In this document: positions 21,055-33,204 of the stretch, piece by piece | Numbering within the stretch: position 1 is the first letter of the stretch | Layout: the number at the start of each line of letters is the position of its first letter | Origin: Bacteroidia bacterium | GTDB taxonomy: Bacteria; Bacteroidota; Bacteroidia; UKL13-3 | DNA length: 44,518 nucleotides | Assembly (NCBI GenBank): GCA_044360615.1 | Contig: JBIKKC010000002.1 | Span: forward strand, 1-44,518 | Direction: 5' to 3' | Program-made: the position numbers and the translations under genes | Notes under the pieces: model-generated | Databases searched by the model: none | What the model saw: the letters and a program-made list of their open reading frames with translations, nothing else | Told to the model about the DNA's origin: nothing

Positions 21055-23262
21055 TTAAGAAGTTGCTAATTCTTCCTCTTCTTCTTGTTTTAATGCTGGC
21101 CTTTCTTGGCTACGTTTTGCTTTAGGGAGTGCACCTATCATATTTTCCAAGTTTTCTGGATCAACAAAGTTTACCCAGCACATAATCTTAGATTCTTCGC
21201 TGGCAGCTTTGCGGAAAAGCTTCATAATATTTTCATCTGCTGCGGTCCAACTTCTTCTAGCATCTACCACAAGTAGGGATAAACGAGAATTGCGAATCAA
21301 CTGATTTGGAATAGCATTAATACTGATTGCAGGAATCTCTACAATAATAAAATTATAAGAACTTCTATTTACCCTTGAAAACTCTGGCAACAAATTCTCT
21401 TCAGTTTTGGCCGAGAAGAATCTTGAAGTAACGTCATACCTTAAAGTTCTAAATCTACGGTCTTCTGTTTCTGCATCTTCAATATTGTCATCATTAGAAA
21501 TATACAATACAGAATAATCTAAACTGTATAACTTTTCGGCTAGTTTTTGCGCAGCGTAGGATTTACCCTCCTGTTCCCTAGTACTTAAAATAGTTATCAA
21601 GTAATTACCATTTACAATAGGATTATTCTCTAGTTCTATCTTTAAGTTGGAGGCTGCATAATCTAATAAAGTATTTTCTATTCTACCAATTTGAAGCGAA
21701 TTAACCAAAGACAAACGGTTAGGTAAGGCACTAAATATTTTCAATCCTGTTAGTTCTTCGGCTTTAGTAGTATTCTTAATAGACCCATCTAATAATTCTT
21801 TTGCAACTAAGTATACCAATAAGAAGAAGAAGGCGGCTAGGAAAGATAATATTACCAAAAGAGGTGCACGACTAGGAACTGATTTAGTTGGAAACACTGG
21901 TTCATCCATAACCTGAAGGTTATTAGACATTTCGATGTTTTGCTGACGCAGTTTAGCCAAATGGTAACCATGAAGAATTTCCAAATATTGACGCTCATTT
22001 ACACTAATCTCTCTTTCTAATCTGCTTACTTGCATATTTAGTGGTGAGAATTCATTGTAACGACGATCAAATTCTTTTCTTCGATCAATATAAATTTGAA
22101 GGCGGGCTTCAGAAGCATCCATTTGAAGAATTTCTTTTAACCAATTTTCTAAAACCATTGCAGAAGGAACAGACTCAATGGTATTGTTTAAACTATAATA
22201 TTGGAGAACCCATAATCTAATCTCTTGCTTAACTGCATCTACTTTTGTGGCTAACTTCGCAATTTTCTCAGGGGAATTACTATAAATTTTAGCTCTTTCA
22301 TACTCCTCATGCGTAATAGATAATTCTTTTCTTAATCTGTTTAACTCAGCATTATTTCTTAGGAGAATTTCTCTACTTTCTAATTGATCCTCTAACCTTG
22401 CTACGGCGCGCTTGTGGGCTTCATAAGACATTAACTCTTTATAGTAATCAGTTTCATTAGTCTCATTTTCAATAGCAACGGCTTTCGCTTGTTCGTAGTA
22501 GTTAATAATCTTATTACGAATTCCGAAATCTTTCAATTTATTTTCGGAATTATTTAAGGCCGCTGCTGATTCCTTTAAGCGGGCTTCAAACCATTTTAAT
22601 ACATTTACAGTTTCTGCTCCCTTTAGGTTTTTATACTTGAAAATGAAAACTTCAGTAATAAATTTCAAGGTGTTTAAACATACTCCTGGATCATCTGATT
22701 TAAAGGTTAAATCGATAAAATCTGAGGTAGACTTGCGCGTTGCGGTAAGGTTTTTGAATATTTGTTGAAGGCTATAATGACCAGTTGGGCGCGATAATAA
22801 ATCTACAACGATATTATCTGTAGAAGAGTTCTTGTATTTGGTTATTTTCTCAACGGTTGCAGTAAAATTACCAGGAACAACCATCAGTGCTCGTTCATCT
22901 GTGATGGTATTTTTAAGGTCTGCGAAACTTTTTTCACCTAATATTAAAGGATCAGGCATTTCTAGTAATAAATGCTGCGCCAACAACTTAATAGCGACAT
23001 CTTCTAGGGTTTGACGTGCCGTAATTGTAGCCAAAAGGTTATCAAAGGCATTATTAATAGTAAAATAGTCTGCACGAGGGGCATCTTCTCCCGAAGTGAT
23101 TCCGTAGCCAGAGGCTATACCCGTGTAAACAATGGTTGCTGCTTGGTATTCCTTAGGCAGCCTAGCTGTTAAAAAGTATACTAATATTGCCACTAATAGT
23201 GGGAATATGATTAACCATTTAAGGTTTTTACTAATTACGCGTAAAAACTGTGCAAGTGTCAT
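21055..23262 (-). CDS. Wzc/GumC-like polysaccharide co-polymerase (chain-length determinant) with a degenerate C-terminal P-loop domain
   Basis: 735 aa. N-terminal Wzz-type TM, a long coiled-coil periplasmic region, a second TM (APLLVILSFLAAFFFLLVYLV) and a C-terminal domain with STREQEGKS (Walker A-like) but atypical A' and B motifs and no Tyr-rich tail. Confidence 0.7.
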   Translation of the reverse strand: MTLAQFLRVISKNLKWLIIFPLLVAILVYFLTARLPKEYQAATIVYTGIASGYGITSGEDAPRADYFTINNAFDNLLATITARQTLEDVAIKLLAQHLLLEMPDPLILGEKSFADLKNTITDERALMVVPGNFTATVEKITKYKNSSTDNIVVDLLSRPTGHYSLQQIFKNLTATRKSTSDFIDLTFKSDDPGVCLNTLKFITEVFIFKYKNLKGAETVNVLKWFEARLKESAAALNNSENKLKDFGIRNKIINYYEQAKAVAIENETNETDYYKELMSYEAHKRAVARLEDQLESREILLRNNAELNRLRKELSITHEEYERAKIYSNSPEKIAKLATKVDAVKQEIRLWVLQYYSLNNTIESVPSAMVLENWLKEILQMDASEARLQIYIDRRKEFDRRYNEFSPLNMQVSRLEREISVNERQYLEILHGYHLAKLRQQNIEMSNNLQVMDEPVFPTKSVPSRAPLLVILSFLAAFFFLLVYLVAKELLDGSIKNTTKAEELTGLKIFSALPNRLSLVNSLQIGRIENTLLDYAASNLKIELENNPIVNGNYLITILSTREQEGKSYAAQKLAEKLYSLDYSVLYISNDDNIEDAETEDRRFRTLRYDVTSRFFSAKTEENLLPEFSRVNRSSYNFIIVEIPAISINAIPNQLIRNSRLSLLVVDARRSWTAADENIMKLFRKAASEESKIMCWVNFVDPENLENMIGALPKAKRSQERPALKQEEEEELATS

Positions 23263-23274
23263 AATTTCTAATAA

Positions 23275-24039
23275 TTAGTTTTTCTTTGGTTTTTTCATTA
23301 CCGATTCTAGTGGCACACCTAATATGGCCTCAAATTGTTCTAAAGCGGCGAAATAAAATCTAAATGATTCATGGTAAGCAGCCTCCGCATCTGCCATAAC
23401 GTTCTTTTGACGTGCATACTCAGAAATATGAATAGTACCCTCTCTATATTCTTTCTCAGCTACTTGGCAAGCAACCAACTGGGTAAGTAAATCTTCATTT
23501 CTTCCTTTATACAACTTATTATAACCAACCATATCTGCATAGTATGAGGCTAATTTTCTCTTGAGTTCTAAAGACTCTGCATCACGTTTATATTTGCTAA
23601 CTAAAGCTTTTTCACGTTGTTCATTTACACGACCTCTATGACCCATTACATCGAAAATGGATAACTGAATATTCACACCCGCACGATAACCTTGGGTTAC
23701 CTGTATTAAGCCTTGAGGATTAGTAATATCATTATAAGCAAAAAATGGCAAACTACCGAAGTTATAGTTGTAAAAAACATAAATATTCTGCGCCCACAAC
23801 CAGCGATTATAGCGCTCTGCCCACAAACTCGAACGCATTGCAGCATTTTCTTGTTTTAATGTTGGGTTAACCGACTTTGCAATCTCGTACAAGGAATCTA
23901 AAGAGGGTAATATTACTTCAATATCGATCTTAGGATCTAAAAATAATGAATCAACCTGCCCCTTGGAAGCCGAGATGAAGCCGAAAAAAATTGCCAGCAA
24001 CAACACTATTTTTTTTAGTTTTATGACTAATCTAAGCAT
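23275..24039 (-). CDS. secreted half-length TolC/OEP-like outer-membrane protein (single OEP repeat)
   Basis: Signal peptide MLRLVIKLKKIVLLLAIFFGFISASKGQ (ATG 24039; TTG 24069 is an alternative). LDSLYEIAKSVNPTLKQENAA..., GYRAGVNIQLSIFD and a long helical hairpin ending YFAALEQFEAILGVPL match one repeat of the outer-membrane efflux protein pattern. Confidence 0.5.
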   Translation of the reverse strand: MLRLVIKLKKIVLLLAIFFGFISASKGQVDSLFLDPKIDIEVILPSLDSLYEIAKSVNPTLKQENAAMRSSLWAERYNRWLWAQNIYVFYNYNFGSLPFFAYNDITNPQGLIQVTQGYRAGVNIQLSIFDVMGHRGRVNEQREKALVSKYKRDAESLELKRKLASYYADMVGYNKLYKGRNEDLLTQLVACQVAEKEYREGTIHISEYARQKNVMADAEAAYHESFRFYFAALEQFEAILGVPLESVMKKPKKN

Positions 24040-24193
24040 AGGTTTAGTTTTAAAAATATCTACCAACAAAGTAAGTGGTCTATACTATATCAAAGGTTTT
24101 CAGTTATTAACCCTCGCTAGATAGGTGTCTATTTTTTTGGCAAATAGGTTTTTTGGAAATAATTCGTGTTTTTTGGTAGTAAAACCAATAAGT

Positions 24194-25393
24194 ATGACAG
24201 GAAGAGATATTATTGTGGTTGGGCTTCAACCCTTGGATAGTTTAATTGGGAGTAACTGCATTAACATTGCAGAGGAATTTGCTAAGAACAATCGTGTACT
24301 ATATGTAAATTATCCTTTTGACAAGGCCTCGCTGAAAAGGGAAAAACACTTGCCAAATGTGGAGATGCGAATTAAAATGCGAAAAAATAATGAAGAAAAT
24401 TTAATTATAGTAAAACCTAATCTATATAATTTCTTTCCTAATACTTTGTTAGAATCAATTAACGGCCTTCCTTTCACATTTTTGTTTAGAATAGCCAACT
24501 TTATCAACAATCGCAGATTTGCCTCAGAAATAAAAAAAGCGATAAAAAGACTTGGGTTTAAAGATTTTTTACTCTTTAATGACAGTGATATGTTTAGAAG
24601 CTATCACTTAAAAGAAATGCTAAAACCTATTTGCACAATCTATTATACAAGAGATAATATGATGAGCGTTCCATATTGGTTCAAACATGGCCAAAAACTT
24701 GAGCCAGAATTAATGGCAAAATCTGATTTGGTTTGTGCAAATTCTACTTATTTATCTGAAATAGCTGCCAAAGAAAACCCCAATTCATTTTATGTTGGGC
24801 AGGGTTGTGATGTAAGTGCGTTTGATAGAAACAAAATAAGTTCTAAACCAGAAGACCTTGCAACTATTAAGGGTCCTATCATTGGCTATATTGGAGCCTT
24901 GTACACCTTACGTCTCGATATTCAAATAATTGCTTTAATAGCCAAAGGTAAACCTGAATGGAGTGTTGTACTCATTGGACCAGAAGATGAAGAATTTGAA
25001 AATTCTGAACTCCACCAATTAAAAAATGTACATTTCTTAGGATTAAAAGATGGCAGTGTATTGCCCCAATATTTAAATTATTTTGATGTGGCCATTAATC
25101 CGCAAATATTAAATGAGGTAACTATAGGTAATTATCCAAGAAAGATTGATGAATATTTAGCCATGGGTAAACCTGTTGTAGCTACAGAAACAAAGGCCAT
25201 GAGCATATTTAAAGACCATACTTATCTAGCCAAGAATAAGGAAGAATATATTTCCCTCATCGAAAAAGCTATTCGTGAAGATAATCCCTTGGTTCGAGAA
25301 GAAAGAATTAAATTTGCGCAATCTCACACTTGGGAAAACAGTGTAAAGGAAATTTATAAAGCCATTATAAAAGTAAACCCTCAATTAGTCTAA
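24194..25393 (+). CDS. GT-B fold glycosyltransferase (family 1/GT4-like)
   Basis: ATG 24194 (MTGRDIIVVG). C-terminal GNYPRKIDEYLAMGKPVVATE sugar-donor binding region. The GTG extension to 24125 is rejected. Confidence 0.75.
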   Translation: MTGRDIIVVGLQPLDSLIGSNCINIAEEFAKNNRVLYVNYPFDKASLKREKHLPNVEMRIKMRKNNEENLIIVKPNLYNFFPNTLLESINGLPFTFLFRIANFINNRRFASEIKKAIKRLGFKDFLLFNDSDMFRSYHLKEMLKPICTIYYTRDNMMSVPYWFKHGQKLEPELMAKSDLVCANSTYLSEIAAKENPNSFYVGQGCDVSAFDRNKISSKPEDLATIKGPIIGYIGALYTLRLDIQIIALIAKGKPEWSVVLIGPEDEEFENSELHQLKNVHFLGLKDGSVLPQYLNYFDVAINPQILNEVTIGNYPRKIDEYLAMGKPVVATETKAMSIFKDHTYLAKNKEEYISLIEKAIREDNPLVREERIKFAQSHTWENSVKEIYKAIIKVNPQLV

Positions 25394-25395
25394 AT

Positions 25396-26013
25396 ATGTC
25401 TATAGCCGCTACCATAAAGTCAAATCCAGCCTTAAAAAAATTAGTGCATTATGCTTTGATCCCAAGAGGACAGGCGCGGCCCAGAACTTGGGTAAAATGG
25501 TTTTTAAACCCATTTTACCATAAGGTTGCGCATGGAAGTACCATACGTTGGAATACCAGGATGGATGTTTTGCCATTTAATGCATTTGAATTAGGTAAAG
25601 GCAGTACCATTGAAGATTATTGCACCATTAACAATGGCGTTGGAGATGTTAAAATTGGCTCGGAAACACGCATAGGAATAAGTAATGTGATTATTGGCCC
25701 CGTTACCATTGGAAACAATGTAATTCTGGCACAAAATATAGTTATAAGCGGGCTAAACCATGGATACGAAGATGTTAACCTACCTATACACAAACAGCCA
25801 GTGAGTATGTCTCCAATTATTATTGAAGATGATTGTTGGATTGGAGCCAATGTAGTTGTAACTTCTGGAGTAACAATTGGAAAACATTGTGTGATAGCTG
25901 CCGGAGCTGTTGTAACTAAATCTATTCCACCTTTTAGTATTGCCGTTGGTAACCCAGCAAGGGTAATAAAGCAATATAATTTTGAAGCTGCCCAATGGCT
26001 AAAAATTTCCTAA
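25396..26013 (+). CDS. hexapeptide-repeat (left-handed beta-helix) acetyltransferase
   Basis: 205 aa. Repeated [LIV]-G-x4 turns (IGISNVIIGPVTIGNNVILAQNIVISG; WIGANVVVTSGVTIGKHCVIAAGAVVTK) and a C-terminal VGNPARVI. Confidence 0.85.
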   Translation: MSIAATIKSNPALKKLVHYALIPRGQARPRTWVKWFLNPFYHKVAHGSTIRWNTRMDVLPFNAFELGKGSTIEDYCTINNGVGDVKIGSETRIGISNVIIGPVTIGNNVILAQNIVISGLNHGYEDVNLPIHKQPVSMSPIIIEDDCWIGANVVVTSGVTIGKHCVIAAGAVVTKSIPPFSIAVGNPARVIKQYNFEAAQWLKIS

Positions 26014-26050: not shown

Positions 26051-28489
26051 ATGCGTTTAACTATTCTATCAATTATTCTTCTTTATTTTCTTCCAAACAC
26101 AAATGCACAAACCACAGAAAAGAAAAATTGCTATGCAGGTGTATTTGTTAACGACATTTCAAGTATAGATGCCAAAATTGGCTTTGCCACAATGAATTTT
26201 GATGTTTGGCTAAAATGGGAAGGTGATGTAATGGATTACCCTAAAATAATTATCAATAATATTTATGAGGAAACAACTGTAGAATTAGAAACTATACACG
26301 ATGATGAAACCAATTGGAACCTAAAACGATTTAATGTGAGAGGCAATTTGACTTGTCCATGGAATGTTCAATACTACCCCTTCGATCACCACAAGTTAAA
26401 CTTCAATATCATGATTGATGATTTGAGTTATGAAAAATGGGAATTAAAACCTGCTTTATCTAATAGTGGCTTAAGTAATGTAAATACGGTAACAGATTGG
26501 GAGGTATATCCTACTTTGATGGTGGGTTATGATACCATAAGAAACAAGCATATTTCTTTGGATCAATCTACAGACATTCCCAAAAAAGAAATGGTGATAT
26601 TTTATGTTGAAATAAAAAGACCACTATTACCTCAGTTTACTAAAATTATTGGTCCGCTTATTTTAATTACCTTAATTGGCTTATTAGCTTTGGCTATACC
26701 AGTTAAAGAATTAGAAGTTAGAACTGCATTTGCCTTTACCGCCTTATTATCCATAGTTGCCTACCAATTTACTACTGCAGATTCTACCCCAGATGTTTCT
26801 TACTTAACTATCTTGGATTATGTGTTTATCTTTGGATATATTTTTGTAGGCACATCGCTATTTATAGTTTGGGGGTGTTCCATTGTTCCAGAAGAAAGAG
26901 GTCAAAAAATCAGTAATCTTTCATTCCGATTTTTTATTCCTACCTATTTGCTTTTAAATACATTTATTATTGTTACTAAATACGTAGAATCAATTACAGG
27001 GATTCCTCAAAAGGAAGCTCAGTTTGCCAACACAAGTTTCCTAAATAGAGCAGATACATTGGTGATGCATAATTTTAGGCAAAGAACCCTTGTCAATTTA
27101 AATTATTTTTGGTTACCAAATCTTCAGGAAAGTAAAGGTGAAAATGATGTAAATTATATATTACCTGAGTATCCTTCCTTTAAAAACAATTATGTGTACT
27201 TACTTAGTGATGGTAAAATGGAGGTTTTTTGGCCAATGTATGATAATCTACAATGGAGTGATGGCAATATTTTGAGTGCCGAAGACATTGAATTTGGATA
27301 TAAAGTTGAACCAGATTCTATGATTTATTCAATAGAAATATTGCGAAGAGATTTATTAAAAATAACTTATAAAGAGCGCGTGTTTCAGCCACAACAAAGG
27401 AACTTACCAATATACCCAAAACACTTTTATAAAAATATGTTATCAACTTACGGAAAAGATTCGGTTAAGAATCACCGTAAAATATTCCCAGCACCTGGTT
27501 ATGGCCCGTATTATGTAGTTTCAAAAGATGACAAAAAAGTTCATTTAAAGTACAATCCTTTTTGCCCTAATAATATTAGTGAATTTAAAAACATTTTGAT
27601 TGAAATTGTTCCTAATGATACCAATGTTTTAAAAAGTGGAAGGGCAGATTTATTCATTAAAAACGCCATTCTACCTGAATTTTTCTTATCGCAACTGAAT
27701 AATGAAAATAGTCCTTACCAAAATAAGATTAGCTCATCAGAAGACAATATTGTTTTGGTTAATAGCTTTGATGTAACAAATGGAAACCATGCAGCATTAA
27801 GCAATGCAATTAGCAAATTTTTCAATAGACAAGAGTTTGTAGACAAATTCTTTGGTTCAAAACTATTATCAGAACCAGTGTATTGGCCATTGAGTAAAAA
27901 TACCAAATACTACGATAGCACTTGCTTGCATTGCGATGAATTTGACAAAACTAAAATTCTAAAAATTTTAAATGCAAGTGGATATCAATATAAAAACGAT
28001 GTTTTATTGAATCAAAAAGGAGAACAAGTAGCATTAAACTTTTTTAGATTAGATAAAAATAGGGTGCCCAAAAACTTAATTAGCATGTATGATTATACCA
28101 TTGTTAGATTGGCGTCACTAGGCATTAAGGTCAATGTTGTTAATTTATTGTATCCAGAGGAACGGTTTAAAGCAGTAGCCAATACGCCAGGATTTTCTGT
28201 GTTTTTAGAATACTCCATGAATGAGGAGATTTTAATGGATTGGACCTTAAACCTAAAACATAAAGATAAATTAATGGAAAATTTATATAGACGATTTGAT
28301 AGGGAAGTAATTAAAGATTTAAGAGCCTTATTAGGGCGAAGGATGATTAATTATCAAACCACACAAACACACGTTTTTGTGCCAATTTGCTCATTAAAAG
28401 CAAGAGATACCTTTAAAAGAGCACTTGCTACAAAAAGGGTTTTACCATTTAGCACCATTGAGGATTTGTATAAATATACCAATTATTAA
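26051..28489 (+). CDS. pentameric ligand-gated ion channel (GLIC/ELIC-like) fused C-terminally to a family-5 periplasmic solute-binding domain
   Basis: 812 aa. Signal peptide (res 1-20). ECD motifs VFVNDISSIDAKIGFATMNFDVWLKWEGD and YPFDHHKLNFNI. Pre-M1 R plus M1 (KRPLLPQFTKIIGPLILITLIG), M2 (EVRTAFAFTALLSIVAYQF), M3 (YLTILDYVFIFGYIFVGTSLFIV), M4 (FRFFIPTYLLLNTFIIV, ends ~nt 26980). Then SBP_bac_5 hallmarks LQWSDGNILSAEDIEFGY and GYGPYYVVSKDDKKVHLKYNPF. Confidence 0.8.
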   Translation: MRLTILSIILLYFLPNTNAQTTEKKNCYAGVFVNDISSIDAKIGFATMNFDVWLKWEGDVMDYPKIIINNIYEETTVELETIHDDETNWNLKRFNVRGNLTCPWNVQYYPFDHHKLNFNIMIDDLSYEKWELKPALSNSGLSNVNTVTDWEVYPTLMVGYDTIRNKHISLDQSTDIPKKEMVIFYVEIKRPLLPQFTKIIGPLILITLIGLLALAIPVKELEVRTAFAFTALLSIVAYQFTTADSTPDVSYLTILDYVFIFGYIFVGTSLFIVWGCSIVPEERGQKISNLSFRFFIPTYLLLNTFIIVTKYVESITGIPQKEAQFANTSFLNRADTLVMHNFRQRTLVNLNYFWLPNLQESKGENDVNYILPEYPSFKNNYVYLLSDGKMEVFWPMYDNLQWSDGNILSAEDIEFGYKVEPDSMIYSIEILRRDLLKITYKERVFQPQQRNLPIYPKHFYKNMLSTYGKDSVKNHRKIFPAPGYGPYYVVSKDDKKVHLKYNPFCPNNISEFKNILIEIVPNDTNVLKSGRADLFIKNAILPEFFLSQLNNENSPYQNKISSSEDNIVLVNSFDVTNGNHAALSNAISKFFNRQEFVDKFFGSKLLSEPVYWPLSKNTKYYDSTCLHCDEFDKTKILKILNASGYQYKNDVLLNQKGEQVALNFFRLDKNRVPKNLISMYDYTIVRLASLGIKVNVVNLLYPEERFKAVANTPGFSVFLEYSMNEEILMDWTLNLKHKDKLMENLYRRFDREVIKDLRALLGRRMINYQTTQTHVFVPICSLKARDTFKRALATKRVLPFSTIEDLYKYTNY

Positions 28490-28536
28490 TTTATATAAAC
28501 TTGTTGCCTAAGTTGGGGAATATTATCTTTGATTCC

Positions 28537-29685
28537 ATGTTATTTTTGCGAATTTTTCTACTTTTTCCTTTTCTATATTGTTTGAACCTAAGCGCCCAAA
28601 CCTTTACCATTGAAGATGGTGACACCATTAATTTAACACAAGCCAATGGTAAAAAGCATGGTTTTTGGCGTTACTTCTGGCCCAATGGCGATCTTAAATA
28701 TGAAGTTTATTATGAGAATGGCGAAAAGGAAGGTCTAGAAATAAGTTATTATGATGGGCAAGATTGTATAGAATATTCTAATACCTATCACAATGGCGTT
28801 TTGGATGGACCACGTGTTATGTTTTACCCCAATTGCTCTACCCGTGTTGAAGAAATTTATAAAGCAGGTTTAAAAGATGGTTATGAAAGAAATTACGATC
28901 AAAATGGATTTCTTTTAACCGAAGGCAGTTTTAGCAAAGGTGAATTAGATGGAAGCTATGCTCATTATGATAAAAAAGGAATTGTAACCTATGAAAGTCC
29001 AACAAAAGAAACTACTTTAAAATTTGACAAGTTCTTAAGCGGTGAGTATAAAATTAGAGACTCGACAATCTTCAACGTTTTTAAGAGAAATAAAGAATGG
29101 AAGAAAGTAATGCTAGTTGTAGATATGACAGGCAGCATGTTTCCATATATTGGGCAAATGCTAGTTTGGTATAAACTAAACTATGAAGATGGGCGCGTTA
29201 AATACTTTGTTCTTTTTAATGATGGAGATAATACCCCAGATGAAAAAAAAGTAGTGGGCAGAACAGGAGGAGTGCACTCGTTTGAAGCCAAAGATTATAG
29301 AAAACTTAAGAAGGATATTGAAGATGTGAGAAAAATGGGTGAAGGGGGTGATGACCCAGAAAATGATTTGGAAGCTATAACCACCGCGATGATTGCTTAT
29401 AGAGATTATACCGACATTGTGTTGTTGGCCGATGAAAGCAATGTTAGAGATATGGCTTTGCTAAAAAGAATAAAGAAGCCGATACATATAATTATGTGTG
29501 GTACAAAAAAAGGCATTAACGACCAATACCTTAAAATTGCATTTCAAACAAAAGGGAGTTTTCATACTACTTCTAATGATATAGATATGAAAAAACTAAA
29601 AGATGGAGAAGAATTCCAAGTTGACAGAGATATATTTAGATTAAGCGGTGGAAACTTTATTTGGGTAGATACCGTTGAAGATTAG
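28537..29685 (+). CDS. secreted MORN-variant-repeat protein with C-terminal vWA-like domain
   Basis: Signal peptide MLFLRIFLLFPFLYCLNLSAQ. About five G-x-[KL]-[HED]-G...Y..NG repeats (GKKHGFWRYFWPNGDLKYEVYYENGEKEG...). C-terminal VMLVVDMTGSM (MIDAS-like DxTxS), GGDDPENDLEAI and VLLADE. Confidence 0.65.
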   Translation: MLFLRIFLLFPFLYCLNLSAQTFTIEDGDTINLTQANGKKHGFWRYFWPNGDLKYEVYYENGEKEGLEISYYDGQDCIEYSNTYHNGVLDGPRVMFYPNCSTRVEEIYKAGLKDGYERNYDQNGFLLTEGSFSKGELDGSYAHYDKKGIVTYESPTKETTLKFDKFLSGEYKIRDSTIFNVFKRNKEWKKVMLVVDMTGSMFPYIGQMLVWYKLNYEDGRVKYFVLFNDGDNTPDEKKVVGRTGGVHSFEAKDYRKLKKDIEDVRKMGEGGDDPENDLEAITTAMIAYRDYTDIVLLADESNVRDMALLKRIKKPIHIIMCGTKKGINDQYLKIAFQTKGSFHTTSNDIDMKKLKDGEEFQVDRDIFRLSGGNFIWVDTVED

Positions 29686-29687
29686 TT

Positions 29688-31631
29688 ATGAAAATTATAC
29701 TTGCATCCAAATCGCCACGCAGGCAAGAATTGATTAAAGGGCTTGAACTTGACTACAGCATAGTAACCTATGAAGTAGATGAATCGTTTGATGCAAGTTT
29801 AACACCGGATAAAATTGCCAGCAGCTTAGCTATTAAAAAAGCAGAGCATTACCCGGGTAAGTTATCTAAGGATGAATTATTATTAACAGCAGATACTATT
29901 GTTTGGATCAACCATACAGTATTAAATAAGCCAAGTAATAAAGCAGAAGCTCTAGAAATGTTACAACAAATTTGTGGCGAAACCCACTCCGTGTATACTG
30001 GAGTTTGCCTAAGAACAGAAAATAAAACCATCAGCTTTTCCGAAAAAAGTGAAGTAAGCTGCAAACAATTAAACCTTAAAGAAATGGAACATTATATAGA
30101 TAATTATAAACCTTACGACAAAGCTGGGAGCTATGGCATACAAGATTGGTTTGGATACACCGCAGTAGAACGCATTAATGGTTGCTTCTATAATGTTATG
30201 GGTTTACCAGTGAGTAAAATTTATGAGGTGCTAAAAAAAGAGTTTGGACTAACCCTCCTAATGCTGTTTATGAGCTTCGTTGGTTTTTCTCAAACTAGAA
30301 CAGTTATTGAGGGTAAACTGCCAGCAAAAAAAGGACAAGCAATGTTACAATTCTTTGCTAACCCTTTCGACAATGAGCCAACCAATAGAAATTTTGAAAT
30401 TGGAGAAGATGGTAATTTTAAAGAGGTAATGAACATGAGTGAAGGCCAAATGATTGCATTTGTAGATGCAAAAGACTTCATGCGATTTTACATTAAACCA
30501 GGGGATAGTTTAAACCTAAGTATTGACCCAAAAGATGCACAAAAGCTGGTAATTAGTGGAAAAGGAAATAAAGATGCCATTTTTGGATACAAACAATTTC
30601 TACATTTTAAAAACACGACAGAAAGTATAGAATTTCAAAAAATTATTGGCATTAAAATGAATATGCTAAGTCCACAAGCATTTAAGTTTTGGGCAGATAG
30701 CATTGTAAAAGAAAAGCAAAGTTTTCTTCAAGCCAATGGACAAAGTTTAAGTAGCGAAGCAAAACTACAAATAGGTGCAGAGAATTTTTATGAGTTTGAA
30801 AATTTGAAACTTACCTATCCTCAATATTATGAAAACAGAAGAAAAAGTAATTCTACATTACCTACCTTAGATGCCAGCTACTTCGATTTTCTTAAGAATG
30901 TAGATTTGAACCAAAGTAAAATAATGCATTCACCTCAATATAGAACATTTCAAAAATTGAATCTTATTAAAGCTATCAATGACAATGGCCAAAAATTAAC
31001 TATTGTAGAGATATGGAAATATTGTGAAACCTTTTTTAAGGGAGAGGTCTTAAAAATCTTCCGCTTACATATTTGGGCAGATATTGTTTACAATAGCACC
31101 CCAGAAGATGCAGGTAGTCTTTACAAATTGGCTCAAGCCGAATGTCAAAACTTACCAGGTTACACTACAGTTGAGGCTGCATATTTAGATAAATTACCAT
31201 TTACTGTGGGATCAAAAGCCTATCCATTTAAGATGAAAGACGCACAAGGTAATTTAATAAGCTTAGAGGATTTTAAAGGTAAGGTAGTTTATTTAGATTT
31301 TTGGGCAAGCTGGTGCAGGCCTTGTTTAGGAGAAATACCTGCTGGAGAAGAACTCAAAAAATACTTTGCCGGAAAGGATGTAGTATTTATTAATATTTCG
31401 ATAGATGAAGGAGAGCAGAATTGGATTGCAGCAAAAAATCGCTACAGTATCAGTGGCATTCATTTACTTTCTAACAATGGCAATAGCCCAGAGGTTCAAA
31501 AAAAATACAAAGTAACTAGTATTCCATCTTATTTCTTAATTGGTAAAGATGGCAATTTCATTTCGGCTCCTGCACCAAGGCCAAGTGCACCCAATATTTA
31601 CAATATGATTGAAGACGCGCTAAAGAAATAG
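29688..31631 (+). CDS. maf: in-frame fusion of Maf nucleoside-triphosphate pyrophosphatase (res 1-~187) and a signal-peptide-bearing TlpA/ResA-like thiol:disulfide oxidoreductase (res ~181-647)
   Basis: Maf motifs ILASKSPRRQELI, LLTADTIV, DKAGSYGIQD, NVMGLPV. Junction KKEFGLTLLMLFMSFVGFSQ looks like a signal peptide. C-terminal thioredoxin fold FWASWCRPC...VTSIPSYFLIGKDGNF. No in-frame stop between the two parts. Confidence 0.7.
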   Translation: MKIILASKSPRRQELIKGLELDYSIVTYEVDESFDASLTPDKIASSLAIKKAEHYPGKLSKDELLLTADTIVWINHTVLNKPSNKAEALEMLQQICGETHSVYTGVCLRTENKTISFSEKSEVSCKQLNLKEMEHYIDNYKPYDKAGSYGIQDWFGYTAVERINGCFYNVMGLPVSKIYEVLKKEFGLTLLMLFMSFVGFSQTRTVIEGKLPAKKGQAMLQFFANPFDNEPTNRNFEIGEDGNFKEVMNMSEGQMIAFVDAKDFMRFYIKPGDSLNLSIDPKDAQKLVISGKGNKDAIFGYKQFLHFKNTTESIEFQKIIGIKMNMLSPQAFKFWADSIVKEKQSFLQANGQSLSSEAKLQIGAENFYEFENLKLTYPQYYENRRKSNSTLPTLDASYFDFLKNVDLNQSKIMHSPQYRTFQKLNLIKAINDNGQKLTIVEIWKYCETFFKGEVLKIFRLHIWADIVYNSTPEDAGSLYKLAQAECQNLPGYTTVEAAYLDKLPFTVGSKAYPFKMKDAQGNLISLEDFKGKVVYLDFWASWCRPCLGEIPAGEELKKYFAGKDVVFINISIDEGEQNWIAAKNRYSISGIHLLSNNGNSPEVQKKYKVTSIPSYFLIGKDGNFISAPAPRPSAPNIYNMIEDALKK

Positions 31632-32782: not shown

Positions 32783-32856
32783 TCCTTCTTAGCTCAGCTG
32801 GTTAGAGCACATGACTGTTAATCATGGGGTCCCTGGTTCGAGCCCAGGAGAGGGAG
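32783..32856 (+). tRNA. tRNA-Asn (anticodon GTT)
   Basis: Hand-folded. Acceptor TCCTTCT/AGAGGGA (one G-U pair). D arm GCTC-AGCTGGTTA-GAGC. Anticodon arm CATGA-CTGTTAA-TCATG. T arm CCTGG-TTCGAGC-CCAGG. Discriminator G. Confidence 0.9.
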
Positions 32857-32859
32857 CTA

Positions 32860-32885
32860 AAGCCGACAGTCCGTCGGCTTTTTTT
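32860..32885 (+). terminator. rho-independent terminator after tRNA-Asn
   Basis: AAGCCGAC-AGTCC-GTCGGCTT followed by a T run. An identical hairpin recurs at 34985-35012. Confidence 0.75.
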
Positions 32886-32898
32886 ATTTAAAAGAGTT

Positions 32899-33204
32899 AT
32901 GTATTACGTTTATATATTATATTCAGAAATAGCTGATAAATATTACGTAGGTCATTCTTTAGACCCATGGTCTCGATTGGAGCAACATTTGAGTAATTCT
33001 GGTGATAAATATACTGGTAGTTATAAAGACTGGAAATTGGCAGGTGTATTTGAAGTATCTCCAAATAAAGGTGAGGCAGATAAAATTGAAAAATTTATTA
33101 AACGACAAAAAAGTAGGAACTTAATAGAAAGGATATTGGATGCCAATTTTGTTGGAACTGGGGAGTTAGCTCAGCTGGTTAGAGTCCCGCACGTGCGGGA
33201 TTAA
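32899..33204 (+). CDS. small GIY-YIG (URI-domain) nuclease-family protein
   Basis: 101 aa from ATG 32899: MYYVYILYS....KYYVGHS.D...RL.QH, ..EADKIEKFIKRQKSR. The track ORF start at 32824 lies inside tRNA-Asn and is rejected. The last ~14 codons and the TAA stop are encoded by the pseudo-tRNA-Asn sequence. Confidence 0.8.
   Translation: MYYVYILYSEIADKYYVGHSLDPWSRLEQHLSNSGDKYTGSYKDWKLAGVFEVSPNKGEADKIEKFIKRQKSRNLIERILDANFVGTGELAQLVRVPHVRD

What the first reader, a model, noticed from the sequence alone, without database searches (positions are those of the whole stretch)
26051..28489. Pentameric ligand-gated ion channel with a complete family-5 solute-binding protein fused after M4
One uninterrupted 812-aa ORF.

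Res 21-190 align by eye to the GLIC/ELIC extracellular beta-sandwich:
- VFVNDISSIDAKIGFATMNFDVWLKWEGD corresponds to the beta1-beta2 ...W.D signature.
- NLTCPWNVQYYPFDHHKLNF occupies the Cys-loop position. The first Cys is kept and the second position is Leu, so there is no disulfide, as in bacterial homologs.

The membrane part follows:
- the pre-M1 Arg and M1 with its conserved Pro;
- M2 (EVRTAFAFTALLSIVAYQF), with a Glu aligned to the GLIC -2' position, which hints at cation selectivity;
- M3, a very short M3-M4 loop, and M4.

pLGICs normally end a few residues after M4. This ORF continues for about 500 aa carrying SBP_bac_5 (OppA/DppA-type) hallmarks: LQWSDGNILSAEDIEFGY and GYGPYYVVSKDDKKVHLKYNPF. 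The C-terminus of M4 is extracytoplasmic, so the binding domain would sit in the periplasm next to the channel's own ligand-binding domain. There is no internal Met or signal peptide for a separate SBP gene, and M4 is needed by the channel, so this looks like a true fusion.

The extra domains I know of in prokaryotic pLGICs are N-terminal. I am not aware of a characterised pLGIC with a C-terminal SBP5. The architecture parallels ionotropic glutamate receptors, where a binding-protein clamshell gates a pore, but it is built on a different channel scaffold.
Basis: partly seen in the sequence, partly recalled or inferred. Interest (0 to 1): 0.85.

Follow-up and report, generated by a model that had tools for sequence, protein, structure and literature searches.

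The report
Ion channel with tethered binding-protein domain
This gene encodes a bacterial relative of neurotransmitter-gated ion channels with a complete nutrient-binding "clamshell" protein fused after its last membrane helix; the design occurs in at least five bacterial phyla, and I found no description of it in the literature I could search.

Summary
Window 26051-28489(+) is one 812-aa ORF with these parts:
- a signal peptide;
- four membrane helices, M1-M4;
- a linker of about 18 aa;
- a complete family-5 solute-binding protein (SBP5).

It is not a frameshift artefact. Five close orthologues (41-78% identity) share the layout, as do about 55 distant protein clusters and 49 loci in species-representative genomes of Myxococcota, Cyanobacteriota, Spirochaetota, Bacteroidota and Patescibacteria.

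Channel hallmarks are conserved across the family:
- FPFD Pro-loop;
- pre-M1 Arg and M1 Pro;
- M2 acidic -2', Arg 0', Thr 6', Leu 9', Ala 13', Phe 16', acidic 20'.

The topology puts the SBP5 in the periplasm beside the channel's own ligand-binding domain.

The most likely function is a cation channel gated or modulated by ligand-induced closure of the M4-tethered clamshell. This is inferred, and the ligand is unknown. No ABC-transporter genes lie beside the gene in the five loci checked.

In the window's divergent Bacteroidota clade only, the gene sits in a conserved polysaccharide-synthesis locus and carries an invariant CxHC motif.

The searched literature describes only N-terminal accessory domains. 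I rate it a new variant of a known kind.

The parts
26051..28489 (+). Whole gene: 812-aa pLGIC-SBP5 fusion protein (stop codon 28487-28489)
   Evidence: ORF list and translation. Local family HMMs match the pLGIC part at residues 4-312 (E 8e-96) and the SBP part at 335-811 (E 2e-113) in the same ORF.
26051..26110 (+). Signal peptide (aa 1-20, MRLTILSIILLYFLPNTNAQ)
   Evidence: The sequence shows a basic residue, a hydrophobic run and a small-residue end. The AF2 model has a helix at 2-12 followed by coil. The cleavage site is inferred, not predicted with a dedicated tool.
26111..26620 (+). pLGIC extracellular beta-sandwich domain (aa 21-190), ending at the pre-M1 Arg190
   Evidence: The AF2 model has strands from 25 to 189. 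The profile aligns positions 26-60 to GLIC beta1-beta2, and 99 onward to the Pro-loop and beyond. W53, W56, P110 and D112 are invariant and R190 is present in 51/52.
26354..26398 (+). Pro-loop (Cys-loop position), aa 102-116, CPWNVQYYPFDHHKL
   Evidence: P110 and D112 are present in 52/52 and F111 in 49/52. C102 is present in only 3/52.
26624..26995 (+). Transmembrane domain: M1 192-215, M2 221-243, M3 254-278, M4 281-315
   Evidence: AF2 helices, hydropathy peaks, and an alignment to GLIC-GABAA and GLIC-GlyR chimeras that runs through M4.
26711..26782 (+). Pore-lining M2 (aa 221-244): E222 (-2'), R224 (0'), T230 (6'), L233 (9'), A237 (13'), F240 (16'), D244 (20')
   Evidence: Numbering comes from the ELIC alignment. 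Family conservation: -2' E/D 45/52, 0' R 45, 6' T 47, 9' L 49, 13' A 51, 16' F 42, 20' D/E 42.
26996..27049 (+). Post-M4 linker (aa 316-333)
   Evidence: Coil with lower pLDDT in the AF2 model. Linker length is 11-30 aa across 52 family members.
27050..28486 (+). Complete family-5 solute-binding protein domain (aa 334-812), predicted periplasmic
   Evidence: Pfam SBP_bac_5, Foldseek matches to whole AppA, NikZ and NikA structures, and profile hits to AppA and DppA.
27914..27943 (+). Clade-specific invariant motif DSTCxHCDEF (aa 622-631), which contains a CxxC
   Evidence: D622-F631 is invariant in the six close orthologues except for the x position, residue 626. The motif is absent from the other 48 aligned members. 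Its function was not tested.
24125..26013 (+). Upstream same-strand genes: GT1/GT4 glycosyltransferase (24125-25393) and hexapeptide acyltransferase (25396-26013)
   Evidence: Pfam. The gaps between genes are 2 and 37 nt. The order is the same in L001-L004 and L069.
28501..31631 (+). Downstream same-strand genes: 394-aa protein with a sub-threshold VWA_4 match (28501-29685) and Maf-thioredoxin/TlpA-like fusion (29688-31631)
   Evidence: Pfam. The gaps are 11 and 2 nt. No terminator-like site was found on the + strand before about 31441. The synteny is conserved.
21055..24069 (-). Divergently transcribed polysaccharide-export genes: Wzz/GNVR chain-length/PCP-like (21055-23262) and OEP-like outer-membrane protein (23275-24069). 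Wzx, Wzy and GT2 genes lie further upstream.
   Evidence: Pfam. The arrangement is the same in L002, L003 and L069.

Best explanation
The gene encodes a subunit of a homopentameric, probably cation-selective, pentameric ligand-gated ion channel of the ELIC/GLIC/DeCLIC kind.

Its last membrane helix, M4, exits into the periplasm. After a linker of about 18 residues it continues into a complete family-5 solute-binding clamshell. Five such clamshells would ring the outside of the extracellular domain, close to the interface between the extracellular domain (ECD) and the transmembrane domain (TMD).

A periplasmic ligand (peptide, oligosaccharide or metal chelate; not identified) closes the clamshell. 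That movement is passed on through M4 and the neighbouring Pro-loop/M2-M3 coupling region, or by docking onto the ECD, and opens or modulates the pore. Ligand presence is thereby converted into an ion flux.

Shown: the domain identities, their order, their conservation and the topology logic.
Inferred: pentamer formation, ion selectivity, that the clamshell controls gating, and the ligand.

In the window's Bacteroidota clade the gene is probably co-transcribed with polysaccharide-synthesis genes. The signal may therefore feed into envelope or exopolysaccharide production. This last step is speculative.
For: - Domain identities and order.
- One collinear alignment spans both domains in about 55 representative clusters. 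All 52 aligned members carry SBP_bac_5 and 38 carry Neur_chan_memb.
- 49 of 64 genome loci have both domains in one ORF, in five phyla.
- Gating and pore residues are under family-wide constraint despite about 20% overall identity. The same 9' Leu and 16' Phe constrictions, and acidic rings at the cytoplasmic pore mouth, are described for DeCLIC (PMC9897478).
- Linker length stays within 11-30 aa.
- No ABC permease or ATPase gene lies next to the gene in L007, L011, L012, L014 or L018, and no neighbour is conserved across phyla. The protein therefore looks self-contained.
- The nearest non-channel relatives of the SBP5 part that were examined are the extracellular domains of Ser/Thr kinases, a sensor context (P0117 and P0134).
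- Precedents exist for binding proteins that signal to pLGICs, chemoreceptors and kinases (PMC549065; PMC8050422).
Against: - There are no functional data.
- The coordinates of the AF2 model could not be inspected, so the SBP-ECD contact is not shown.
- The equivalents of the DppA ligand-anchoring residues D408 and R355 are not clearly conserved. The ligand class is open, and binding competence is unproven.
- The window clade has a much weaker SBP_bac_5 score than the rest of the family (2e-12 against a best of 3e-49).
- The window clade lacks the D166/G168/E173 motif. That motif lies in the segment I take to be the loop-C hairpin, and it is nearly invariant elsewhere. This clade may therefore work differently from the main family.
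- Only a few flanking genes were checked for ABC transporter components.
Confidence: 0.55

Rival explanations
1. The channel is gated in the usual way through its own extracellular domain, by protons, an amine or a cation. The C-terminal SBP5 does not control the pore. It serves another periplasmic purpose, such as concentrating ligand near the orthosteric site (as Tasneem et al. proposed for associated binding proteins), localising the channel, or binding envelope or polysaccharide material.
For: - The ECD is complete and conserved. In the main family it includes a nearly invariant SD.GS...EG motif in the segment I take to be the loop-C hairpin. This suggests the ECD keeps a function of its own.
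- Tasneem 2005 proposed 'preliminary concentration or sensing' for fused or operonic PBPs.
- The window clade sits in a polysaccharide locus.
Against: - A 480-aa domain kept in a fixed position, with a length-constrained linker, across five phyla suggests a tight mechanical or steric relationship with the channel.
- The attachment point, M4, is next to the gating interface. This last point rests on general pLGIC knowledge and was not tested here.
Confidence: 0.25
2. The SBP5 is a membrane-anchored substrate receptor for an ABC importer encoded elsewhere. Substrate-binding domains fused to or tethered near transporters are a known arrangement. In this reading the pLGIC part is mainly a pentameric membrane anchor, or the protein has two unrelated functions.
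For: - Public annotations call family members 'ABC transporter substrate-binding protein' or 'peptide/nickel transport system substrate-binding protein'.
- The SBP5 part is most similar by profile to the transport proteins AppA and DppA.
Against: - No ABC permease or ATPase gene is adjacent in the five loci annotated or in the window clade, and no neighbour is conserved across phyla.
- Pore-lining and gating residues are strongly conserved, which a mere anchor would not need.
- Those annotations come from automatic SBP_bac_5 hits.
Confidence: 0.1
3. The long ORF is an assembly or sequencing artefact: a lost stop codon or a frameshift joining a pLGIC gene to a neighbouring SBP gene.
For: Two contigs do show the gene broken by a frameshift: L001 (ECD in an overlapping upstream ORF) and L049. 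Errors or pseudogenes therefore occur in this family.
Against: - The identical 812-aa protein is seen on 5 contigs.
- Orthologues at 78, 77, 72 and 47% identity, and 49 species-level genome loci, have the single ORF.
- M4 is needed by the channel, and the SBP part has no signal peptide of its own.
- No locus shows separate adjacent pLGIC and SBP5 genes.
Confidence: 0.02

Closest known systems
Prokaryotic pLGICs ELIC, GLIC and DeCLIC (Pro-loop receptors)
   Same: - Signal peptide, beta-sandwich ECD with an FPFD Pro-loop, pre-M1 Arg, M1 Pro and four helices with a very short M3-M4 loop.
- M2 carries 9' Leu and 16' Phe, as in ELIC and DeCLIC, plus acidic residues at the cytoplasmic pore mouth.
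- Profile E-values to GLIC reach about 1e-20 (PMC9897478).
   Different: - Those proteins end a few residues after M4. This one continues for about 500 aa into a periplasmic SBP5.
- DeCLIC's accessory domain is N-terminal and is made of beta-rich lobes, not a clamshell.
pLGICs with N-terminal periplasmic-binding-protein fusions (PBP-I/Peripla_BP_6; Tasneem, Iyer, Jakobsson & Aravind 2005), and pLGIC genes in operons with PBP-II genes
   Same: - A bacterial binding-protein clamshell is combined with a pLGIC core, presumably to add or tune ligand sensing.
- Examples were seen here: P0007 and P0136 (Peripla_BP_6 + pLGIC), and P0092 and P0103 (NMT1_3 + pLGIC).
   Different: - The clamshell here is a family-5 SBP (Pfam SBP_bac_5), not PBP-I.
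- It is attached to the C-terminus of M4, at the membrane-proximal periphery, and not to the N-terminus on top of the ECD. The coupling route must therefore differ.
Ionotropic glutamate receptors / bacterial GluR0
   Same: A binding-protein clamshell in the same polypeptide as an ion pore, outside the membrane; ligand-induced closure drives gating. This is a resemblance in how it may work.
   Different: - The pore scaffold is unrelated: a tetrameric inverted K+-channel-like pore in iGluRs, a pentameric four-helix-bundle pLGIC here.
- In iGluRs the pore is inserted within the clamshell sequence. Here the clamshell is simply appended after M4, and the channel also keeps its own ECD.
- This protein is not a member of that family.
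Free SBP5 proteins that signal to membrane receptors (DppA-Tap chemoreceptor, chitin-oligosaccharide CBP-ChiS sensor kinase, AibA-TlpB)
   Same: A family-5 SBP acts as the primary ligand sensor for a separate membrane signalling module (PMC8050422).
   Different: - Those work in trans, with soluble SBPs, and have kinase or chemoreceptor outputs.
- Here the SBP5 is covalently tethered and the output module is an ion channel.

Membership tests
Pentameric ligand-gated ion channels (Pro-loop/Cys-loop superfamily) | Extracellular beta-sandwich ligand-binding domain homologous to Neur_chan_LBD | tested here: met
   - The AF2 model has strands from 25 to 189.
- The profile aligns to GLIC beta1-beta2 and from the Pro-loop onward.
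- Canonical pLGICs of 300-330 aa match profile positions about 1-307; two checked ones carry Neur_chan_LBD.
- For this single sequence, Pfam Neur_chan_LBD is only E 0.026, below the cut-off.
Pentameric ligand-gated ion channels (Pro-loop/Cys-loop superfamily) | Pro-loop/Cys-loop motif (F/Y-P-F-D) between beta6 and beta7 | tested here: met
   The window protein has YYPFD at 108-112. P110 and D112 are invariant in 52/52. There is no disulfide pair: C102 is not conserved and position 116 is Leu. This is normal for prokaryotic members (Pro-loop in prokaryotes, Cys-loop in eukaryotes; PMC9897478).
Pentameric ligand-gated ion channels (Pro-loop/Cys-loop superfamily) | Four transmembrane helices, with a pre-M1 Arg, an M1 Pro and a pore-lining M2 carrying 9' Leu | tested here: met
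   - Helices 192-215, 221-243, 254-278 and 281-315.
- R190 51/52, P202 52/52, L233 (9') 49/52.
- NCBIfam LGIC_1 at 1.3e-9 and PDB hits.
Pentameric ligand-gated ion channels (Pro-loop/Cys-loop superfamily) | Assembles as a pentamer and conducts ions on ligand binding | not testable with these tools
   No multimer prediction or experiment was available. Inferred from homology and from conserved pore residues.
Family-5 bacterial extracellular solute-binding proteins (SBP_bac_5, OppA/DppA/NikA type) | Significant match to the SBP_bac_5 model above the curated threshold | tested here: met
   47.3 bits against a 32.4 cut-off, residues 398-718. 52 of 52 family members match, best 2.9e-49.
Family-5 bacterial extracellular solute-binding proteins (SBP_bac_5, OppA/DppA/NikA type) | Complete SBP5 fold of about 500 aa | tested here: met
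   Foldseek aligns 500-540 columns to full-length AppA (1xoc), NikZ (4oet) and NikA (3dp8), with TMt 0.67-0.76 and E about 1e-22.
Family-5 bacterial extracellular solute-binding proteins (SBP_bac_5, OppA/DppA/NikA type) | Ligand-anchoring residues of a known specificity class (for example DppA Asp408 and Arg355 for peptide termini) | tested here: inconclusive
   In the profile-DppA alignment both positions fall in weakly conserved columns. No specificity class can be assigned.
Family-5 bacterial extracellular solute-binding proteins (SBP_bac_5, OppA/DppA/NikA type) | Works with a cognate ABC importer, usually encoded alongside | tested here: not met
   No ABC permease or ATPase gene is adjacent in the window clade or in five other loci. 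A distant partner cannot be excluded. The domain is a structural member of the family, but it is probably not a transport SBP.
Ionotropic glutamate receptor family | Tetrameric P-loop (K+-channel-like) pore inserted into a PBP-II clamshell | tested here: not met
   The pore part is homologous to pLGICs, not to P-loop channels. The clamshell is appended after the pore domain and is not interrupted by it. The resemblance is in working principle only.

The most novel reading that the evidence does not exclude
This is a widespread, previously unrecognised class of bacterial pLGICs in which the primary agonist sensor is an SBP5 clamshell covalently attached to M4. Gating would then be driven from the periphery of the transmembrane domain rather than from the orthosteric ECD site. 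That would be a convergent, pentameric counterpart of the iGluR design. In this Bacteroidota clade it has been recruited, together with a CxHC motif and a thioredoxin-like neighbour gene, to couple a periplasmic chemical or redox cue to exopolysaccharide production.
Probability: 0.3. Interest if true: 0.85.

Novelty: new variant of a known kind. Interest (0 to 1): 0.66.

Why it matters
In the literature I could search, accessory domains of bacterial pLGICs are a current structural topic, but only N-terminal ones are described, and DeCLIC is the only solved example.

A natural channel with a large ligand-binding clamshell on the extracellular end of M4 would offer three things:
- a direct test of whether movements at M4 and its neighbouring Pro-loop/M2-M3 interface can gate a pLGIC;
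- a second, independent case of evolution joining a binding-protein clamshell to an ion pore, alongside glutamate receptors;
- a modular scaffold for engineered ligand-gated channels, since SBP5 proteins bind peptides, oligosaccharides, opines and metal chelates.

It also corrects the annotation of many database entries. The named family members I looked up are labelled as ABC-transporter substrate-binding proteins or as hypothetical proteins.

Tried and rejected
1. AF2 with only the six close orthologues gave pLDDT 46 and was unusable. It was replaced by a run on a 52-sequence alignment.
2. The search for related loci with the whole 52-sequence alignment failed because no stretch was conserved enough. 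A 12-sequence subset worked.
3. I looked for a conserved operon partner across phyla by all-against-all clustering of flanking ORFs. None was found; no flanking-gene cluster occurred in more than 4 of 43 loci. ORF calling in the high-GC Myxococcota loci was crude, and 8 loci dropped out of the analysis.
4. I looked for a split ancestral state, meaning a pLGIC gene next to a separate SBP5 gene. None was seen; only frameshifted copies appeared (L001, L049).
5. I tried to read the ligand class from the DppA anchor residues. This was inconclusive.
6. Literature: nine full-text searches and five papers read found no C-terminal SBP-pLGIC. The DeCLIC 2020 PNAS paper was not held. InterPro, CDART and TCDB architecture tables could not be consulted, so a prior database-level listing cannot be excluded.
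7. The sigma-70 promoter scan was uninformative: 38 sites found against 37.9 expected. It is also not suited to Bacteroidota.
8. Rfam found only two tRNAs in the window.
Full report
**1. The observation**

Window 26051-28489 (+) is a single uninterrupted ORF of 812 codons plus a stop. It starts with a plausible signal peptide, MRLTILSIILLYFLPNTNAQ. Hydropathy gives three strong membrane segments in residues 199-312; M2 is amphipathic and falls below the threshold.

**2. The C-terminal domain**

- Pfam places SBP_bac_5 on residues 398-718 (E 2e-12, 47 bits against a 32-bit cut-off).
- A profile of 52 family members hits solved family-5 binding proteins: C. difficile AppA at 1.8e-45, E. coli and Y. 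pestis DppA at about 1e-42, and NikA at about 1e-36.
- An AlphaFold2 model built on that alignment has mean pLDDT 84.8 and pTM 0.78.
- In Foldseek the model aligns over 500-540 columns with entire AppA, NikZ and NikA chains (E about 1e-22, TM-score normalised by target length up to 0.76).

The C-terminal 480 residues are therefore a complete SBP5 and not a fragment.

**3. The N-terminal domain**

Evidence from the single sequence is modest:
- Pfam Neur_chan_LBD and Neur_chan_memb reach only E 0.026 and 0.058.
- NCBIfam LGIC_1 reaches 1.3e-9.
- phmmer hits ELIC, Torpedo and muscle nAChR and GLIC chimeras at about 4e-6 over residues 98-272.

Family-level evidence is decisive:
- A profile of the first 318 residues of ten members hits GLIC and GLIC-GABAA or GLIC-GlyR chimeras at 3.5e-26 to 1e-18. 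The match covers beta1-beta2 and then the Pro-loop through M4.
- 38 of 52 members match Neur_chan_memb, best 2.5e-13.
- Ordinary 300-330-aa pLGICs align to profile positions about 1-307.
- The AF2 model shows a beta-sandwich at 25-189 and helices at 192-215, 221-243, 254-278 and 281-315, with an M3-M4 loop of only a few residues.

**4. Channel hallmarks**

Across 52 sequences that share only about 20% identity with the window protein:

| Feature | Residue in window protein | Conservation |
|---|---|---|
| Pro-loop Pro | P110 | 52/52 |
| Pro-loop Asp | D112 | 52/52 |
| pre-M1 Arg | R190 | 51/52 |
| M1 Pro | P202 | 52/52 |
| M2-M3 loop Pro | P247 | 52/52 |
| M2 -2' | E222 | E/D 45/52 |
| M2 0' | R224 | 45/52 |
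| M2 6' | T230 | 47/52 |
| M2 9' | L233 | 49/52 |
| M2 13' | A237 | 51/52 |
| M2 16' | F240 | 42/52 |
| M2 20' | D244 | D/E 42/52 |

The prime numbering comes from the ELIC alignment.

- Leu 9' and Phe 16' are the hydrophobic constrictions described for DeCLIC.
- Acidic rings at the cytoplasmic pore mouth are the basis on which DeCLIC was classed as cation-selective (PMC9897478).
- Its 'first Cys kept' point does not. Position 102 is Gly in 46 of 52 members and Cys in only three.

**5. A real fusion, and a family**

- The identical protein occurs on five contigs. Orthologues of 78, 77, 72 and 47% identity have the same length and layout.
- A sixth orthologue (41% identity) is split by a frameshift, with the ECD in an overlapping upstream ORF.
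- An exhaustive HMMER search of 1.84 billion representative proteins found about 55 further clusters of 790-917 aa. Each aligns in one stretch across the M4-SBP junction (E 1e-65 to 1e-34).
- A scan of one genome per prokaryotic species returned 64 loci. Of these, 49 carry both domains in one ORF.
- By phylum: mostly Myxococcota (Myxococcaceae, Archangium, Kofleriaceae), plus Cyanobacteriota (Oscillatoriaceae, Synechococcaceae, Melainabacteria), Spirochaetota, Bacteroidota (Cytophagales, Flavobacteriales) and a Gracilibacteria genome. All are metagenome-assembled genomes (MAGs).
- The linker between M4 and the first SBP strand stays within 11-30 residues.
- No locus shows a separate pLGIC gene followed by a separate SBP5 gene.
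- The named members I looked up are labelled 'ABC transporter substrate-binding protein', 'peptide/nickel transport system substrate-binding protein' or 'hypothetical protein'.

**6. Topology**

A cleavable signal peptide puts the ECD in the periplasm, and four helices return the chain to the periplasm. The SBP5 is therefore extracytoplasmic, which is where SBPs function. This follows from homology with solved pLGICs, not from a dedicated predictor.

From general knowledge of pLGIC structures (not tested here), the extracellular end of M4 lies at the outer rim of the helix bundle, beside the Pro-loop and the M2-M3 loop that couple binding to gating. A linker of about 18 residues would keep each 55-kDa clamshell near that interface. 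Five of them could fit around a ring of that circumference.

**7. Genomic context**

- In the wider family the neighbours are unrelated from locus to locus. They include an endonuclease/phosphatase-family gene, a radical-SAM gene, an Fe-hydrogenase, a competence gene and a PMT glycosyltransferase. No ABC permease or ATPase was seen in the five loci annotated.
- This argues against a transport-SBP role and for a self-contained unit.
- The nearest non-channel relatives of the SBP5 part that I examined are the extracellular domains of Ser/Thr kinases, which is a sensor context.

**8. The window's own clade**

- It is a divergent branch: 18-23% identity to the rest, and a weaker SBP_bac_5 score.
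- It lacks the SD.GS...EG motif that is nearly invariant in the segment I take to be the loop-C hairpin in the main family.
- It has an extra invariant motif, DSTCxHCDEF.
- In all lineages of this clade examined (window, L001-L004, L069) the gene sits between a GT1 glycosyltransferase plus a hexapeptide acyltransferase upstream, and a VWA-like protein plus Maf and a TlpA-like thioredoxin downstream.
- Where the contig extends far enough (window, L002, L003, L069), this block faces a divergent Wzz/GNVR-Wzx-Wzy-GT2 polysaccharide cluster.
- Intergenic gaps are 2-37 nt, and no terminator-like site appears before about 31441. Co-transcription is likely but unproven.

**9. Mechanism and rivals**

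Best explanation (0.55): a cation-selective pLGIC whose M4-tethered clamshell senses a periplasmic ligand and gates or modulates the pore.

Rivals:
- The ECD gates the pore and the SBP5 has an auxiliary role, such as concentrating ligand or localising the channel (0.25).
- The SBP5 is a membrane-anchored substrate receptor for a distant ABC importer (0.1).
- Assembly or sequencing artefact (0.02).

The ligand is unknown. The DppA anchor residues are not clearly conserved, and SBP5 proteins bind peptides, oligosaccharides, opines and metal chelates.

**10. Comparison with what is known, and novelty**

- Tasneem et al. 2005 described N-terminal PBP-I and MCP-N/Cache fusions, and PBP-II genes in operons with pLGIC genes.
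- The DeCLIC papers of 2022 and 2025 still speak only of N-terminal domains.
- The 2016 Pro-loop survey and the 2021 SBP-signalling review do not mention such a fusion.
- Nine full-text searches found nothing.
- Architecture databases could not be queried.

I therefore rate this as a new variant of a known kind: a pLGIC with an accessory binding-protein domain, but of a different SBP family and at the opposite end of the chain. It resembles iGluRs in working principle only.

I set interest at 0.66. Function remains inferred, and binding-protein fusions to pLGICs are not new in themselves.

Noticed in passing
window 29688-31631 (+): Maf (nucleotide pyrophosphatase, aa 2-184) and a TlpA/AhpC-TSA thioredoxin-like domain (aa 507-624) are in one 647-aa ORF. 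In L002 and L069 the orthologues are two separate genes, while in L001 they are again fused (655 aa). This is either a recurrent fusion of a cytoplasmic enzyme to a periplasmic redox protein, or a frameshift difference between assemblies.
   Followed up: partly
window 27914-27943 (aa 622-631 of the fusion protein): An invariant DSTCxHCDEF motif (Cys-x-His-Cys plus acidic residues) occurs only in the window's Bacteroidota clade. It could be a metal site or a redox-active disulfide, and a thioredoxin-like gene lies two genes downstream. No test of either idea was possible.
   Followed up: partly
window 28501-29685 (+): The 394-aa protein immediately downstream has YENGEKEG-type repeats that look MORN-like to me by eye. 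Pfam gave only a weak VWA_4 match (E 2.8e-5, below the cut-off). It is the gene immediately downstream in the window, L002-L004 and L069; in L001 a short ORF intervenes. It is absent from the wider family.
   Followed up: partly
P0145 (870 aa; not in the window): This pLGIC has an N-terminal Peripla_BP_6 domain and a C-terminal SBP_bac_1 domain. It is a second, different kind of C-terminal binding-protein fusion, with clamshells at both ends. The SBP_bac_1 match runs to the last residues, so the protein may be cut by a contig end.
   Followed up: no
P0092 and P0103 (from; not in the window): These pLGICs have an N-terminal NMT1_3 binding-protein domain (NMT1/THI5-like; weaker hits to the phosphonate-binding SBP model). 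Tasneem 2005 listed only PBP-I, MCP-N and Cache as fused domains.
   Followed up: no
P0117 and P0134 (from; not in the window): These Ser/Thr protein kinases have a C-terminal SBP_bac_5 domain. Among the non-channel hits examined, they are the closest relatives of the channel-fused SBP5. The same SBP5 lineage seems to serve as a sensor on two different output modules.
   Followed up: no
L022/L025, L019/L030, L009/L057 and L013/L056: Several Myxococcaceae MAGs carry two copies of the fusion gene, or one fusion gene plus an N-terminally extended pLGIC without an SBP5. Paralogous expansion would allow heteromers or different ligand specificities.
   Followed up: no
window 32783-33204 (+): tRNA-Asn (32783-32857) is followed directly by a strong terminator-like hairpin (32859-32881). 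The listed 126-aa ORF (32824-33204) overlaps both. Its true start is probably the internal MYYVYILYS..., which looks like a GIY-YIG-type small protein.
   Followed up: no
window 23275-24069 (-): A 264-aa protein with a single OEP (TolC-like) repeat sits at the head of the Wzz/Wzx/Wzy polysaccharide operon, in the place of a Wza-type exporter. It is about half the length of a normal outer-membrane efflux protein.
   Followed up: no
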